A stretch of DNA of 64,000 bases, from the NCBI RefSeq assembly GCF_009914755.1, contig NC_060925.1. One strand, 5' to 3'. The notes under the pieces are model-generated. The model saw only the letters and a list, made by a program, of their open reading frames with translations, was not told where the DNA came from and did no database searches. A program made the position numbers and the translations under genes. This stretch comes from the human T2T-CHM13v2.0 reference genome, Homo sapiens. This document shows positions 26,201 to 32,722 of this stretch, in pieces (the stretch's first letter is position 1; each line of letters starts with the position of its first letter).

Positions 26201-26417
26201 CAAGCCTCCAATTAACCACAGGATTTCTGGTAGGTTGGACTGTGGTGTTGGTGTTTGCAGTCCAAAGAGTTGCTGTGATTTTTCTGTGCCTGTCTGTCTT
26301 TCTTTGAGGCTTCTTAGATCATCTCATTTGGCGTCCTTTCACCCAAGAGTTAACCAAGCGAGGAATGGTTTCCTCGCTTTCCTCCTACCTTTTGCTGGTG
26401 GAGCTGCTTTCGAAAAG

Positions 26418-27259
<842 letters not shown>

Positions 27260-27610
27260 GTACAGGTCATGTGTTTTTACTAAATGAACCACCACAGATT
27301 AAGAAATAGAACATTACTATATTGGGGTATATATGTAGAAGTGGCATTGTTGGTTTTAGAGCTATATGAATGATAAAACTTTAGTATTACATATGGCTGA
27401 ACATTTTCCCAAAGTGTTTTATCAGTTAGCAGGGAATATTCCAGTTACCCCACATCCTTGCTGATGCTTGTCAGTTAAAAATTATTTTGTTATTCTCGTA
27501 GAGGTGCAGTAATATATCAATGCGGTTTCAACTTCCATTTTCCTGGTATTGAGATTGAGTATCTTTTATTGCCATTTATATGTCCTCTTTTATGAAGTGC
27601 CTGTTAAATC

Positions 27611-30600
27611 TTTTTTTTTTTTTTAATTTTAAATCTTTAATTTCCGTTTTCACGTATTTTCTTCTTGCTTCCAAAAGGAAAGGAGTGCGTAGCTCTGTTG
27701 CCTGTACATCGTCCACAGCCCCTGGGTCGGGGCGGGGTCCCCTGGGCCGCCCGGGGGGGTCCACATGCAGCCCCTGGGTGGGGGCCGGCGCGGGGTGAGG
27801 TCCGGGGGCCGCCTTATTGCTGAGGTCCGGCTGGTTGGGGCCGCCGCTAGGCGCGCTGGCTGGGCAGCTCCTGGGAGATGAAGCGACGCAGGCGCTCCAG
27901 GTACTGGCTGTAGAGCTCGATGTCGTTGTGCCCGGCGCCCTCCACCCACAGCGGCTCCACCGCCTTGGGGCAGCGCTCGTAGAGCGCCAGCCCGTGCGAG
28001 AAGTCGATCACCTCGTCCTCCCTGCCGTGGATGATGAGCACGGGAGACGTGATCTTGGACACCTTCTCGATGTTAGGGAAGGCGTCGAAGCAGTAGGTCT
28101 TCTTGGTGTCGCGGAAGGCGACGCGCATGCCCGAGGTGAGCGGCGAGTGCAGCACCACCGCGGCACACTCGTAGCGCGAGGCCAGGTCCATGGTGGGCAC
28201 CGTGCCGATGCTCTGCCCGTACAGGATGATGCTGTCCGGGCTGATGCCGTACCTGGCGGCGCCGGAGCAGGGTCAGCCGCGGCCTCCAACGCGCGCGCAC
28301 CCTTCCCACCAGCGGGCGTCCCCGGGCCCAGCTCCGGATGCGACCCTCCAGTCTCCCCACTCAGCCAAGTCAGTGGGTCAGGCTCAGGCTCCACACCAGT
28401 CCCGAGGGCCACCCCCAGCCCCCAACACCGTGGCGGTGGGCGAAGCCAGCGGCCCCGCCCCGTTCCCTGCGCTGCCGTTCACTGGCGTTTCCTAGCTAGG
28501 ATCTGCAGGGATCCTGCCTACGGAGTGCCCCTGGGGCGGGGGTAAGGGAGGCCCTGGCGCCTCTCCTCCTCCTGGTCACCCCTAGGTGCACACTGGGAAC
28601 TGTGTGGCCCCCACATCCTGAATGCTTCATACCTTCCTGCCCGGGTTAGAAAGCCGTTCCTGGTGCACTGGCCAGGACAGCGGACACTCTTCCTCCCTGC
28701 AGCCCTTGCCCACCCCCTTGGCCATGAGGAATTCAGGCAGCTGTGTCCCCAAATGTCTCCACCCAATTTTGGACTCTCGGAGTCCCCACGCCCAGTGAGA
28801 TGCCAGTGCAACCCAGGTCAGCATCGAGGGTGGTGGCTGCGGAGGTGGCACCCCCTCCCACCAGCACCTTCCCTTGGGAGTGGACAAGTCCTCGGCCACC
28901 TCAGCACCACCAGCTCCCACCCAGGGGCACCCTCACCCCCAGGTCATTGGTGTGCGGCCCCTGACCCAGCTGATCCAGCACCAGTTACAAGGCCTCCTCG
29001 TGCCCAGTCCCAAGCACGCGGGACCCACCTGCCACCCTGCCCATGCCGGGACCCCACAACTCTCCTCCCACACGCTCTAGGCTCTGATCCCAGGCAGACG
29101 CCCTCTTGCAAGGCAGGAGCATGGGCAGGTGTGCGTCCCCTCTGCCTGGCATTCGGACTCCACCAGCAGGGCTGTCCCCGTCCCTGGCCTGGAATCCCAG
29201 CCTCCTGGCAGCACTCCACAGCTCGCCACTCACCCATGCCCCAAAGGATGCTGCCTGGCTGGTGCCTGTGGCCCCAGCTCTGCCTCGGCCTCCCCGGCCT
29301 GCTCCCTGGCAGCCATGGTCAGTAGTGTGCTGAGCCAGCCCAGCCCTGCCACCTGCTACAGGCAGGAGCCCCCAGCTGCCACCTGGATGTCACCACTCAA
29401 ACGAACGGGACACATCCCCAGTGGAGGCCCTGGGCACGCTCTGGCCTCCCCCTCATGGCTCTGGGCCTAGGTTCCTGCAGGACAAAGGGGCAGCAGGACA
29501 GATGGCCGAGCAGACAGAGCTCAGAGCTGGCCATGGCAGGTGTGACTCTGCCAGTGGCCCAGGCAGTAGAGACAGGAGGGGCCGAGGAAGCCGCATGAAG
29601 TGGTGATTGGTGTCAGCGTCCCACAACTGCCGGGAGGCCCCTGGAGCCAGGGTGGTGCCAGGGGACCAGCTCCCAGGCCCACAGCAGGGACTGCCTGCAT
29701 ATCACCAAGGCAACGACGACCCCACCTCCCTAGGGCCTCTGACTTCTCAGAGCTGTGCCTGGTCCCTGCGGGAGCAGGTCAGACCAGTGGGCTGGGCAGG
29801 GCCAGGACGAGACAGGCCCAGTGGATGGCGAGCAGGAAAAGCCACCAGAGGCCCAGCCGGGTCTCCTCGTCCAAAGCAGCACTGGCCCGGGCGCTGCTCA
29901 AACACCGGTGAAGGGCCCAGGCAAGCACAGGGCTGGGGACGTGGATGACTAGGAGGGCTGGATCTGGAATCGAGGCTGGCCCAGACCTCGGATGTGTGCT
30001 GCGGGTCTGCACCTTACCCTGTAGGCCCTGCCCCAGGATGGCCAAGCTCCGCAGCCACAGGGCCTCATGGGCCAGTCCTCCGGACCTGGATGCAGCAGCC
30101 TCGCCTCACTTGGCCCCAAGTGCTGCCTCAGCCGATGGGCTCCCAGCCACACGTGCACAGACCCCCAGACCACCACCCACTCCCTCCCGCCAGGTGGCAT
30201 CCACACCCCTGTGACAAGCTCAGCCCCTTCCCATCCTCAGGCCAGGGGTTCCCAGGGAGCCTGGCTCCACAGGCCAGGGTGTGGGAGGACCGCCTGGCCA
30301 CACCTCAGCCATGTGGAGGCGGCACCTGCACACCCAAGCTCGCCTGTCCGGCTCTCTGGCCCTGTGCATCCACTGTGGCTCCCCTCCTGCAGGGCCGCCC
30401 ACCTTCCTCCCAGGGAAGCCCGCCCCCCGGCCCCCCGCCTGGTCCCCTCTTGGGTGTGCCCAGGCTGAGCTGCCCCCAGGGTCGCCCTCACCTGGTGCGC
30501 AGGGCCTGCCAGGTGGCGTCGATGTCGGCATAGAGGTTCCTCTCGGAAGGCCTGCCCGAGCTGGCACCGTAGCCGGAGGAGTCGTAGGTGAAGATGTTGC

Positions 30601-31348
30601 AGTGGAGGCGGGAGCCCAGGCCAATGTAGAAGCTGCTCATCTGGCCCAGGTCCACGGCATTGCCGTGCGAGAAGAGGACCGTGTACCTGGCACCAGGCAC
30701 GCAGCGAACATACATGCAGGAGACACGGTTGCCGCGGGCGCTCTTGGTGGGGAAGACCTCGATGGTGTCCAGCTCGCGCTGGCTGTACTGGAAGTCGGCA
30801 CGCTCCGTCAGGTGCAGCTTCCAGCGCCCGGGTGCGCCCGAGGAGGCTCTCAGGGTCCCCAAGGGGGCGGCCCCGGCCCCACCAGGCCCCAGCTCGGGCT
30901 CAGGCACCAGGGAGTAGGTGGCCTCCGGCGGCAGGAAGGCGAGCTTGGCAGCGATGCGGCCGGGGCAGGGAGGGCAGCAGAAGAGGCAGCAGAGCTCACT
31001 CAGCGACAGCCCGTTCATGGCGGGCGCCGCCCGGGCCGGGCCTCCACCGGGGCCCCCGCCAACAACGCCGCCCGGCCTGGCCCGGCAGGGGAGGGGTGGG
31101 GTGCTCCGAGTCGCGGGCAGGGGGGAGAGCGCCCCCCCAGCTACCGCCCCAGACAGCAGCCCCGTTAGGAGGCCAGGGCCCAGCCCCATCGCGGTCCAAG
31201 CCGAGCCCCAGGGAGCCTCGCAACCACAGGTCTCCATGTCGTGCCGTGGGAAGCCCACCCCGGCCCGCGCCCCCGGGCCCCAGGGCCGCGCTCCATGGCT
31301 CCCGGCCGCCCGCCCGTGCGTCCGTCGGTCCCTCCGCACCCCTGCCCC
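27611..31348 (-). pseudogene. ABHD17AP1: Semi-processed ABHD17A (FAM108A1) retrocopy retaining one intron (28253-30491); spliced ORF 31018-30492 + 28252-27847 = 933 nt, 310 aa, intact
   Basis: Translation [28 protein letters not shown]...GQSIG...HGREDEVI...GAGHNDIE...LPSQRA. Other parental exon junctions are fused. Poly(A) tail appears as a T-run at 27611-27624, ATTAAA signal at 27641-27636, TSD TAAATCTTTTT at 27605 and 31349, inserted into an old L1M. Confidence 0.93.
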
Positions 31349-31519
31349 TAAATCTTTTTATCCAGTTTTCATTGATATGCTTTTCTGTTGATTTGTAATA
31401 CTTTATTCTGGATATGCATCCTTTCTAGGATATATATGGATTGCATTTCTCTTTTTTCAATCTGCAGCTTGTGTTTTCACTCTTTTAATGACGTTTTTTC
31501 ATGAATGGAGATTCTCTAA

Positions 31520-32722
31520 TTTTTTTTCTTTTTGAGACAAGATCTCACTCTGTTGCCCAGGCTGGAGTGCAGTGGTACAATCACAGCTTAGTGCAACCTC
31601 GACCTCCCAAGGCTCAGGTGATGCTCCTGCCTCAGTCCCCAAGTAGCTGGGACCTACAGGAGACCACTACCATGCTCAGCTGTTTTTTGTATTTTTACTA
31701 GACATGGGGTTTTGCCATGTTGCATAGCCCGATACGGAATTCCTGGGCTCAAGTGACACCTGCCTCGGCCTCCCAAAGTGTTGGGATTATAGGCATGAGC
31801 TACCGCACCCGGCCAGAGTATCTTAATTTTAATGAAATATACTTTATCAATCTTTTCCTTTATGGTTACTGCTTATTGTGTCCTGTTTAAGAAATCAATG
31901 CCTGGCCAGGTGCGGTGGCTCATGCCTGTAATCCCAGCACTGTGGGAGGCCTAGGCAGGTGGATCACGAGGTCAGGAGTATGAAACCAGCCTGGCCAACA
32001 TGGTGAAACCCCGTCTCTACTAAAAATACAAAAATTAGCTGGATGTGGTGGCGGGCACCTGTAATCCCAGCTACTCAGGAGGCTGAGGCAGGAGAATTGC
32101 TTGAACCCAGGAGGCGGAGGTTGCAGTGAGCCGAGATTACACTACTGTACTCCAGCCTGGTTGACAGAGCAAGACTCTGTCTTGTACCAAAAAAAAAAAA
32201 AAAAAAAAAAAGAAAGAAAAAAGAAATCAATGCCTAGCCTAAGAATATGAACACACTTTTCTATATTAACCTTATAGCAATTTTATTTTAGTTTTTGCAT
32301 TTTTTTTTTTCAGACAGGGTCTTACTCTGTTGCCCAGGCTGAAGTGTGTTGGCATAATCTCAGCTCACTGCCACCTCCACCTCCTGGCTCAAGCAATCCT
32401 CCTGCCTCAGCCTCCTGAGTAGCTGCGACTATAGGCGTGTGCCACCATGCCTGGCTAATTTTTGTATTTTCTGTAGAGATGGGGATTCAACATGTTTCCC
32501 AGGTTGGTCTCAAACCCTTGGGCTCAAGTAGTCTGCTTGCTTCAGCCTCCCAAAGTGCTGGGATTACGGCATGCACCACCATGCCCAGCTAATTTTTTAT
32601 TTTTTGTAGACAGGGTCTTCCTGTGGTGCCCAGACTAGTTTCAAACACTTGGGCTCAGTTGATTGTCACACCTTGGCATCCCAAAGTGTTGGGATTACAG
32701 GTGTGAGCCATCACATCTGGCC
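31520..32722. mobile_element. Alu cluster: antisense AluJ 31520-31815, sense AluS 31904-32221, antisense AluJ plus extra monomer 32300-32722
   Basis: Alu consensus in alternating orientation. Confidence 0.85.

What the first reader, a model, noticed from the sequence alone, without database searches (positions are those of the whole stretch)
27611..31348. ABHD17A 'pseudogene' is a semi-processed retrogene with one spliceable intron and a fully intact 310-aa depalmitoylase ORF
Seen: retroposition hallmarks (poly(A), ATTAAA, 11-bp TSD splitting an L1M, fused exon junctions), yet one 2239-bp intron remains with canonical CAG|GTGAG (30492/30491) and CAG|G (28253/28252) ends. Removing it gives exactly 933 nt = 310 codons plus stop. 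The N-terminal Cys cluster (CCLFCCPPC), the GQSIG nucleophile motif (S190), D255 and H284 are intact. Against the parent as I recall it there are 7 substitutions (P43L, S144T, Y147S, A169T, V197M, P223R, T253R). Known: ABHD17 enzymes depalmitoylate N-Ras and PSD-95, and intron-retaining retrocopies are uncommon. Inference: this may be a young, translatable paralog with its own CpG-rich 5' end, nested antisense in an NBPF gene; T253R (next to the catalytic Asp), P223R and Y147S could change activity. An intact frame could also simply reflect young age.
Basis: partly seen in the sequence, partly recalled or inferred. Interest (0 to 1): 0.8.

Follow-up and report, generated by a model that had tools for sequence, protein, structure and literature searches.

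The report
Young intron-keeping ABHD17A retrocopy, drifting neutrally
This is a young retrotransposed copy of the ABHD17A gene that kept one of the parent's four introns; its reading frame is still whole, most likely only because it is young, since its changes look like neutral drift.

Summary
ABHD17AP1 (window 27611-31348, minus strand) is an L1-type retrocopy of ABHD17A. Parental introns 1, 2 and 4 are removed exactly at their GT..AG ends, and intron 3 (2239 nt) is kept. It has a 14-A tail, an 11-bp target-site duplication and an extra 5' G. Ten paralogous NBPF sites are empty.

The idea of a working paralog is not supported:
- On the copy's lineage there are 7 nonsynonymous and 2 synonymous changes (omega about 1.1).
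- Exons change as fast as the intron.
- 6 of 6 mappable substitutions hit residues invariant in human ABHD17A, B and C.
- A frame this young stays open by chance about 0.29 of the time.
- A 1-nt deletion in the 5' UTR puts two upstream ATGs in frame, giving 383- or 367-aa ORFs.

New here: all 11 substantial ABHD17A-derived copies in this genome keep intron 3. They stem from at least 5 separate retropositions from the parent lineage. None is fully processed, and every other copy is frameshifted. The chr22 pair looks like a retrocopy of a retrocopy. Expression could not be tested.

The parts
31349..31359 (-). 5' copy of the target-site duplication AAAAAGATTTA
   Evidence: Ten of 10 paralogous empty sites carry it once.
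31348..31348 (-). Single G that is templated neither by the parent (C there) nor by the target site. This is the kind of extra 5' G expected from a capped full-length mRNA; that link is from my own knowledge.
   Evidence: column 48.
31256..31347 (-). Parental exon 1 (5' UTR, 92 nt), starting inside the parent's TSS cluster. It holds upstream ATG 1 (31296), which opens a 43-aa uORF.
   Evidence: 100% identical to the parent. Junction GGGGTG|GGCTTCC. uORF.
30687..31255 (-). Parental exon 2: the rest of the 5' UTR and the start of the CDS (ATG at 31018). It holds upstream ATGs at 31237 and 31189, and a copy-specific 1-nt deletion at about 31102 that puts them in frame with the CDS.
30492..30686 (-). 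Parental exon 3 (195 nt), fused exactly to exon 2. It carries S144T, Y147S and A169T.
28253..30491 (-). Retained parental intron 3 (2239 nt here, 2233 nt in the parent). The GTGAGG...CAG ends are intact. If the intron is left unspliced, a TGA stop follows at once and the ORF from the main ATG is 176 aa.
   Evidence: Contiguous 98.4% alignment to the parent across exon 3, intron 3 and exon 4. Splice sites. Stop. No Rfam family found.
28073..28252 (-). Parental exon 4 (180 nt). It holds the GQSIG nucleophile motif (S190), V197M and P223R.
27625..28072 (-). Parental exon 5, fused exactly to exon 4 (the 82-nt intron 4 is removed). It holds T253R, D255, H284, the stop codon (27849-27847), the 3' UTR and ATTAAA (27641-27636).
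27611..27624 (-). Poly(A) tail of 14 A, not templated in the parent gene.
   Evidence: the parent continues TTAGGGCTG.
27605..27615 (-). 3' copy of the target-site duplication. Its A's overlap the poly(A) tail.

Best explanation
ABHD17AP1 is a retropseudogene made by the L1 machinery from a capped, polyadenylated ABHD17A transcript. In that transcript introns 1, 2 and 4 had been spliced out and intron 3 had not.

How it arose:
- It inserted by target-primed reverse transcription at a TTTTT/A site inside an old repeat in intron 1 of one NBPF paralog (NBPF11), in antisense orientation.
- This happened at about the time, or just after, that paralog separated from its 99%-identical sister at G000:C1:147.87 Mb.

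What has happened since:
- The copy has drifted neutrally. Its frame, catalytic triad and splice sites survive because only about 0.7% of its bases have changed, not because selection keeps them.

Why it keeps an intron:
- Keeping intron 3 is a property of the parent gene, not an oddity of this copy. Every ABHD17A retrocopy in the genome keeps intron 3, across at least five separate retropositions from the parent lineage.
- So transcripts retaining intron 3 must make up most of the ABHD17A RNA that L1 copies in the germ line or early embryo.

Shown: the retroposition, the exon and intron anatomy, the empty site, the substitution pattern, and the recurrence of intron retention.
Inferred: that intron 3 is slowly or poorly spliced in the parent, and that the copy has no protein function.
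For: Retroposition:
- Three exact intron removals.
- Untemplated poly(A), an 11-bp duplication and an extra 5' G.
- Ten of 10 paralogous sites are uninterrupted, and the closest paralog's flanks are 98.5% and 99.3% identical.

Neutral drift:
- With the other copies as outgroups, all 7 nonsynonymous changes and 2 of the 3 synonymous changes fall on the copy lineage. The parent lineage has 0 nonsynonymous and 1 synonymous.
- Omega is 1.14. The probability of 7 or more nonsynonymous among 9 changes is 0.019 at omega 0.2 and 0.0009 at omega 0.1.
- The copy-lineage rate is 10/1481 in exons and 15-17/2239 in the intron.
- 6 of 6 mappable substitutions lie at residues identical in human ABHD17A, B and C. 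Of 240 covered positions, 174 are invariant.
- The chance of no stop after 9 substitutions is 0.80. The chance of no indel in 933 nt is 0.37, taken from 3 one-base indels in 2787 noncoding nt.
- The window copy is the youngest copy (98.8% identical to the parent) and the only one of 11 without a frameshift.

Recurrence of intron 3 retention:
- Five copies have their own duplications, tails and 5' ends.
- The tree is a ladder with the parent nested inside it: (parent, window) 100, then chr17 98, then the chr22 pair 100 (its attachment node supported at only 71), chr1:213.8M, and the chr15/16 family.
- All 11 copies keep GTGAGG..CAG and the body of intron 3.
- No fully processed copy turned up in three whole-genome searches in which every candidate was scored: 21 of 21, 29 of 29 and 26 of 26.
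- Intron 3 has the weakest polypyrimidine tract of the four introns, with a longest run of 4 against 7-8.

Annotation: RefSeq lists the locus as 'pseudogene', not 'transcribed_pseudogene' (hub annotation supplied with the finding).
Against: - The frame, the start codon, the Cys cluster, S190, D255, H284 and both splice sites are all intact. A functional copy would look the same in these respects.
- With only 9 coding changes the test cannot exclude mild constraint. Omega of 0.3 gives P = 0.07 and omega of 0.5 gives P = 0.24.
- The copy carries a CpG-rich 5' end.
- Sister copies show signs of activity. ABHD17AP6 RNA is measured in blood (passages read). ABHD17AP4 overlaps a candidate imprint control region (passages read).
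- Two sister copies kept their 5' CpGs better than their intron CpGs (Fisher P = 0.003 and 0.013).
- The chr22 pair suggests that one retrocopy was itself transcribed in the germ line.
- No expression data for this copy could be consulted, so 'not transcribed' rests on the annotation label alone.
Confidence: 0.82

Rival explanations
1. One reading: the copy is a young functional paralog. It would be transcribed from the CpG-rich 5' end it carried along, have intron 3 spliced out, and be translated into an ABHD17A-like depalmitoylase whose substitutions near the active site change its activity.
For: - The 310-aa frame, the triad motifs, the Cys cluster and the canonical splice sites are intact.
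- The 5' end is CpG-rich.
- Sister copies show expression or regulated CpG islands.
- 7 nonsynonymous against 2 synonymous changes would also fit positive selection.
Against: - Omega is about 1.1, and exons change at the same rate as the intron.
- 6 of 6 substitutions hit residues invariant in three paralogs, including Y147S in SYDYSGY, P223R, and T253R two residues before the catalytic Asp.
- An intact frame is expected by chance about 0.29 of the time.
- A copy-specific 1-nt deletion puts two upstream ATGs, each with G at -3 and G at +4, in frame. The first in-frame ATG would then give a 383-aa protein with the N-terminal Cys cluster 73 residues from the end.
- The one intron that must be removed is the intron that stayed unspliced in every retroposed transcript of this gene. 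Unspliced RNA stops after 176 aa.
- All ten other copies have decayed.
- RefSeq does not mark the locus as transcribed.
Confidence: 0.07
2. The locus matters as DNA or RNA rather than as protein. The CpG island it carried into NBPF11 intron 1 would act as an antisense promoter or a differentially methylated region that influences NBPF11, as intronic retrogenes do at some imprinted loci (that comparison is recalled, not from any call).
For: - The insert is CpG-rich and antisense, lying about 2 kb downstream of the end of NBPF11 exon 1 (and the hub annotation).
- Sister copy ABHD17AP4 overlaps a candidate imprint control region.
- Sister copies chr17 and chr22:22.5M kept their 5' CpGs.
Against: - In the window copy itself, 5' CpGs were lost about as often as intron CpGs: 4 of 80 against 6 of 83, P = 0.75.
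- 9 of its 25 lineage-specific substitutions are CpG transitions, as expected for methylated, unprotected DNA.
- No methylation or transcript data for this copy were available.
Confidence: 0.08
3. The copy arose by DNA-level (segmental) duplication of ABHD17A and later lost three introns.
For: The region is full of segmental duplications, and one intron is present.
Against: - Homology to the parent starts at a transcription start and ends at the polyadenylation site.
- The A-tail is untemplated, and an 11-bp duplication has matching empty sites in 10 of 10 paralogs.
- Three introns are removed to the base.
- No parental promoter or downstream DNA is present.
Confidence: 0.01

Closest known systems
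Semi-processed (partially processed) retrocopies, such as rodent preproinsulin I and the TMF1 insertion into CYBB
   Same: These are L1-type copies of an incompletely spliced mRNA that keep some parental introns and have a poly(A) tail and a target-site duplication. The class is described in passages I read from PMC4151081 and is mentioned in PMC5470649.
   Different: Preproinsulin I is a working gene, whereas this copy shows no sign of constraint. Here the same intron is also kept in at least five separate retropositions from one parent. I did not find that reported for this gene: searches for 'ABHD17AP1' and for 'FAM108A' with 'retrocop' each returned 0 papers.
Sister pseudogenes of ABHD17A in the same genome (chr1:213.8 Mb, chr22:21.1 and 22.5 Mb, chr17:20.8 Mb, four on chr16, two on chr15)
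   Same: They share the parent and the retained intron 3, with intact GTGAGG..CAG ends. Those that reach the 5' part also have introns 1 and 2 removed.
   Different: They have their own insertion sites, duplications and 5' ends. They are older, at 91-98% identity to the parent against 98.8% for the window copy. All are frameshifted. The chr17 copy and the chr15/16 family also keep intron 4, and the chr15/16 copies are truncated inside exon 3. My assignment of the names ABHD17AP4 and ABHD17AP6 to particular copies rests only on the neighbouring genes named.
ABHD17A, the parent depalmitoylase (S190 nucleophile)
   Same: The copy is 303 of 310 residues identical, with the Cys cluster, GQSIG, D255 and H284 present. 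S190A is reported as catalytically impaired in passages I read from PMC8523714.
   Different: There are seven substitutions, six of them at residues invariant in ABHD17A, B and C. The parental promoter is absent. The 5' UTR frame relation is altered. There is no evidence of selection.

Membership tests
L1-mediated processed or semi-processed retrocopy | Parental introns are absent exactly at the exon junctions | tested here: met
   Introns 1 (3547 nt), 2 (1119 nt) and 4 (82 nt) are removed to the base at GT..AG sites.
L1-mediated processed or semi-processed retrocopy | A poly(A) tail at the parental polyadenylation site that is not templated in the parent | tested here: met
   14 A's follow ...AAAATT, 11 nt after ATTAAA, whereas the parent continues TTAGGGCTG.
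L1-mediated processed or semi-processed retrocopy | A target-site duplication with a matching empty site, at a TTTT/A-like target | tested here: met
   AAAAAGATTTA flanks the insert. Ten of 10 paralogous sites read ...GGATAAAAAGATTTAACAGGC... without interruption. The L1 endonuclease consensus is recalled, not from a call.
L1-mediated processed or semi-processed retrocopy | For 'semi-processed': at least one parental intron is retained and is homologous to the parent's intron | tested here: met
   Exon 3, intron 3 and exon 4 align without a break to the parent at 98.4% over 2626 nt.
Functional retrogene | An intact open reading frame | tested here: met
   933 nt with no stop or frameshift. This is expected by chance about 0.29 of the time.
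Functional retrogene | Purifying selection (dN/dS clearly below 1) | tested here: not met
   Omega is 1.14 on the copy lineage, the exon rate equals the intron rate, and 6 of 6 substitutions lie at paralog-invariant residues. Power is limited, since omega of 0.3 gives P = 0.07.
Functional retrogene | Transcription and translation | not testable with these tools
   No RNA-seq, CAGE, Ribo-seq or proteomics could be consulted. RefSeq labels the locus 'pseudogene', and the name ABHD17AP1 appears in 0 papers.
ABHD17 family depalmitoylase (alpha/beta hydrolase) | An alpha/beta-hydrolase domain with a Ser-Asp-His triad and an N-terminal Cys cluster | tested here: met
   The GQSIG Ser190, D255, H284 and CCLFCCPPC are present. 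The C-terminal half matches Pfam Hydrolase_4 at 32.9 bits against a cut-off of 27. The exon-1-encoded 175 residues (copy exon 1 = parental exons 2-3) gave no Pfam match on their own. The spliced protein could not be scanned whole.
ABHD17 family depalmitoylase (alpha/beta hydrolase) | Thioesterase activity | not testable with these tools
   This needs an assay. Y147S, P223R and T253R alter invariant residues.

The most novel reading that the evidence does not exclude
The copy is not dead. It would be transcribed from the CpG island it carried along, sometimes be spliced at intron 3, and be translated into a hominid-lineage ABHD17A variant of 310 aa. Alternatively, the new in-frame upstream ATGs would give 367- or 383-aa products with a buried palmitoylation motif. 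Changes around the catalytic Asp (T253R, P223R, Y147S) would alter its substrate range or turn it into a dominant-negative protein. The locus lies inside the 1q21.1 copy-number region.

A second, better-founded novelty goes with it. ABHD17A intron 3 behaves as a detained intron, and transcripts that retain it are the preferred L1 template. All 5 of 5 separate retropositions from the parent kept it, which puts the share of retroposed transcripts retaining it at 0.55 or more (one-sided 95% bound).
Probability: 0.07. Interest if true: 0.7.

Novelty: new member of a known kind. Interest (0 to 1): 0.3.

Why it matters
For the locus itself the result is sobering. An intact frame in a 1%-diverged retrocopy is what chance gives, and the pattern of changes says drift. 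ABHD17AP1 should therefore stay a pseudogene until RNA or peptide evidence says otherwise.

Three by-products are of more general use:
- ABHD17A is a clean natural example of one specific intron being retained in every retrocopy over a long time span. Copy-to-parent identities run from 91% to 98.8%. These copies are a fossil record showing that transcripts retaining intron 3 have long dominated the L1-accessible pool of this gene. That makes the intron a good candidate for a regulated or detained intron.
- The chr22 pair, with 12 shared derived substitutions and two shared 3-nt deletions but separate insertion sites, indicates that a retrocopy of this gene was itself transcribed and retroposed.
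- The insertion is a single-paralog marker within the NBPF duplications of 1q21.1, present in 1 of 11 paralogous sites. It is useful for telling these near-identical duplicates apart and for dating them.

Tried and rejected
- Rfam, run in E-value mode on 27500-31500 on both strands, gave 0 matches. The retained intron hosts no known RNA family that might explain its retention.
- A sequence search of the PDB with the 134 C-terminal residues found only distant esterases (best E = 2e-6) and no ABHD17 structure. The substitutions were therefore not mapped on a solved structure.
- I made no structure prediction. The spliced protein is a joined sequence that I did not submit, and a fold would not settle the question.
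- CpG decay as a test for germ-line methylation of the copy's 5' end was inconclusive for the window copy (4 of 80 against 6 of 83 lost, P = 0.75). It was informative only for two sister copies.
- Literature: 'ABHD17AP1' returned 0 papers. 'FAM108A' with 'retrocop' returned 0. 'ABHD17A' with 'intron retention' returned 3 papers, of which I opened one (PMC6781777, which lists only an alternative-donor event), so I saw nothing on retention of this intron. FAM108A2 appears only in gene lists for 1q21.1 copy-number variants.
- A preprint (10.1101/2020.06.07.139212; section 5 and passages read) lists ABHD17A among the parents of GRCh38 retrocopies missing from at least one of 17 human samples. It could be this copy, another copy, or a mis-alignment to the 99%-identical empty paralog.
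- DNA-level duplication followed by intron loss was considered and rejected.
- A single master retrocopy as the source of all copies was considered and rejected. The parent is nested inside the tree and shares 13 derived sites with the window copy alone.
Full report
**What is in the window**

I read 27500-31500 on the minus strand and rebuilt the proposed gene in a script.
- The ATG is at 31018, and the first coding part runs to 30492 (527 nt).
- An intron of 2239 nt (30491-28253) follows, bounded by CAG|GTGAGG and CAG|G.
- The second coding part runs from 28252 to the TAG at 27849-27847 (406 nt).
- Joined, they give 933 nt = 310 codons with no internal stop.
- CCLFCCPPC starts at residue 10. 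The Ser of GQSIG is residue 190. D255 and H284 are present.
- The C-terminal 134 residues match Pfam Hydrolase_4 (32.9 bits, cut-off 27). The 175 N-terminal residues alone match nothing.

**The parent and the anatomy**

The window's own assembly could be searched. The parent ABHD17A lies on G000:C19. Alignment and the junction sequences show that the parent has five exons and four introns.

In the window copy:
- Intron 1 (3547 nt), intron 2 (1119 nt) and intron 4 (82 nt) are missing exactly at their GT..AG ends.
- Exon 3, intron 3 (2233 nt in the parent) and exon 4 align without a break at 98.4%.
- Homology begins at 31347, inside the parent's 5' exon, and ends at 27625, 11 nt after ATTAAA. 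There the parent continues with unrelated sequence and the copy has 14 A's.
- One G at 31348 is templated neither by the parent nor by the target.
- AAAAAGATTTA flanks the insert on both sides.

**The empty site**

I searched the genome with the two flanks separately. This found a set of paralogous chr1 sites in which the two flanks abut.
- In the 10 I read, the sequence runs ...GGATAAAAAGATTTAACAGGC... with a single copy of the 11-mer.
- The closest paralog, at C1:147.87 Mb, is 98.5% and 99.3% identical in the two flanks.
- So the insertion is specific to this NBPF paralog.
- It is about as old as the split from that sister. Flank divergence is about 0.75-0.86%. Copy-to-parent divergence is about 1.0-1.25% overall, or about 0.75% when CpG sites are left out (my arithmetic).
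- I cannot say whether it is human-specific.

Retroposition by the L1 machinery is thus established. A DNA-level duplication is excluded.

**Is the protein under selection?**

Against the CHM13 parent the CDS differs at 10 bases.

I used the other copies as outgroups (the window coordinates printed there are one too low).
- All seven replacements and two synonymous changes fall on the copy lineage. The parent lineage has one synonymous change.
- Over the whole insert the copy lineage has 25 substitutions (plus 2 ambiguous) and three 1-nt indels, none of them in the CDS.
- The rates are 10/1481 in exons, 15-17/2239 in the intron, and 9/933 in the CDS.
- With 702 nonsynonymous and 228 synonymous sites, omega is 1.14.
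- Seven or more replacements among nine changes has P = 0.61 at omega 1, 0.07 at 0.3, 0.019 at 0.2 and 0.0009 at 0.1.

I fetched the coding exons of human ABHD17B and ABHD17C. Six of the six substitutions that can be mapped lie at residues identical in all three paralogs, where 174 of 240 covered positions are invariant. They include Y147 in SYDYSGY, P223, and T253 two residues before the catalytic Asp. Substitutions that do not avoid conserved sites are what drift gives.

The chance that nine random substitutions create no stop is 0.80. The chance of no indel in 933 nt at the copy's own noncoding indel rate is 0.37. Together that is about 0.29.

The parent's 5' UTR has three upstream ATGs. 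Two of them open an out-of-frame uORF that overlaps the main start. In the copy, a 1-nt deletion at about 31102 puts these two ATGs (31237 and 31189, both with G at -3 and G at +4) in frame with the CDS. That gives ORFs of 383 and 367 aa. If the intron is not removed, a TGA at the donor ends the protein after 176 aa, or 249 aa from the first in-frame upstream ATG.

**The family**

The genome holds ten further substantial ABHD17A-derived copies (every candidate of the first look was scored).

Five copies, including the window's, have their own target-site duplication, A-tail and 5' end:
- window copy: parent position 1037
- chr1:213.8 Mb: 1003
- chr22:21.1 Mb: 992
- chr22:22.5 Mb: 988
- chr17:20.8 Mb: 1007

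The four chr16 and two chr15 copies share flanks. They start inside exon 3 and end at the parental poly(A) site with a short A-run. They look like one old 5'-truncated retrocopy that was later spread by duplication. I saw no duplication for them.

All eleven copies keep intron 3 with intact GTGAGG..CAG ends. The chr17 copy and the chr15/16 family also keep intron 4. None of the five copies that reach the 5' part keeps intron 1 or 2.

Identity to the parent:
- window copy: 98.8%
- chr17: 98.0%
- chr22:22.5 Mb: 97.4%
- chr22:21.1 Mb: 96.9%
- chr1:213.8 Mb: 96.9%
- chr15/16 family: 91-92%

The maximum-likelihood tree, rooted on a chr16 copy, is a ladder with the parent nested inside: (parent, window) 100, then chr17 98, then the chr22 pair 100, then chr1:213.8 Mb, then chr15/16. 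The node joining the chr22 pair to that group has support of only 71. That is the pattern of serial retropositions from one evolving parent, at least five of them, and it excludes a single master retrocopy.

Five of five events keeping intron 3 puts a one-sided 95% lower bound of 0.55 on the share of retroposed ABHD17A transcripts that retain it. Intron 3 has the poorest polypyrimidine tract of the four introns, which is a modest hint at the cause.

The two chr22 copies share 12 derived substitutions and two 3-nt deletions, yet sit in different insertion sites. One is probably a retrocopy of the other. An alternative is that both come from a lost source.

Only the window copy lacks a frameshift.

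**Activity of the carried CpG island**

The copy's 5' part is CpG-rich. In two older sisters the 5' CpGs survived better than the intron CpGs. For chr17, 3 of 76 were lost against 16 of 83 (P = 0.003). For chr22:22.5 Mb, 4 of 80 were lost against 15 of 83 (P = 0.013). The window copy shows no such difference, with 4 of 80 against 6 of 83.

In print, from passages I read:
- ABHD17AP6 RNA is measured in blood (PMC6643643).
- ABHD17AP4 overlaps a candidate imprint control region (PMC9665137).
- Nothing was found under ABHD17AP1.
- Its old name, FAM108A2, occurs only in gene lists for 1q21.1 copy-number variants beside NBPF11.

**Comparison with what is known**

Semi-processed pseudogenes are a described class (PMC4151081, passages; PMC5470649, passages). 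This locus meets every defining feature that I could test. It does not meet the selection criterion for a functional retrogene. Its expression is untested.

A preprint lists ABHD17A among the parents of reference retrocopies that are absent from some human assemblies. Its supplementary table, which would say which copy is meant, could not be opened.

**Verdict**

The object is an annotated pseudogene of a known kind, and its intact frame is best explained by youth. What is worth keeping is the recurrent retention of one particular intron across all retrocopies of this gene.

Noticed in passing
L033 (G000:C22:22527200-22534199) and L032 (G000:C22:21075300-21082299): The two chr22 ABHD17A retrocopies share 12 derived substitutions and two 3-nt deletions. 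They nevertheless have different target-site duplications, and their 5' ends lie 4 nt apart. This looks like a retrocopy of a retrocopy, which would mean one copy was transcribed in the germ line with intron 3 again left unspliced.
   Followed up: partly
L034 (G000:C17:20786000-20794500): The chr17 copy keeps both intron 3 and intron 4. It also lacks 54 nt at the exon 2/3 junction, in a way that fits use of an alternative acceptor (..GAGCAG|CTTC) inside exon 3. A later microhomology deletion would look the same.
   Followed up: partly
window 31102, 31189, 31237: A copy-specific 1-nt deletion in the 5' UTR converts the parent's overlapping out-of-frame uORF into an in-frame N-terminal extension, giving ORFs of 383 and 367 aa.
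   Followed up: yes
G000:C22:17712722-17713097; C22:11030172; C21:7811867; C21:10783604; C13:13906286; C13:10786836; C13:13718166: Seven places, mostly on acrocentric short arms, match the last-exon part of the query at 66-68% DNA identity over about 390 nt. They were not found by the protein searches. Their nature is unknown.
   Followed up: no
G000:C14:67255365-67255478: A 114-nt fragment is 92% identical to the very 3' end of the ABHD17A 3' UTR. It is probably a severely 5'-truncated retrocopy and says nothing about intron retention.
   Followed up: no
window 26400-27610 and 31349-32600, against G000:C1:147866261-147868710: The nearest NBPF paralog is 98.5-99.3% identical in the flanks but lacks the insert. 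Nine further chr1 paralog sites, at 81-91% identity to the window's low-side flank, are also empty. The insert is therefore a single-paralog marker within the 1q21 duplications.
   Followed up: yes
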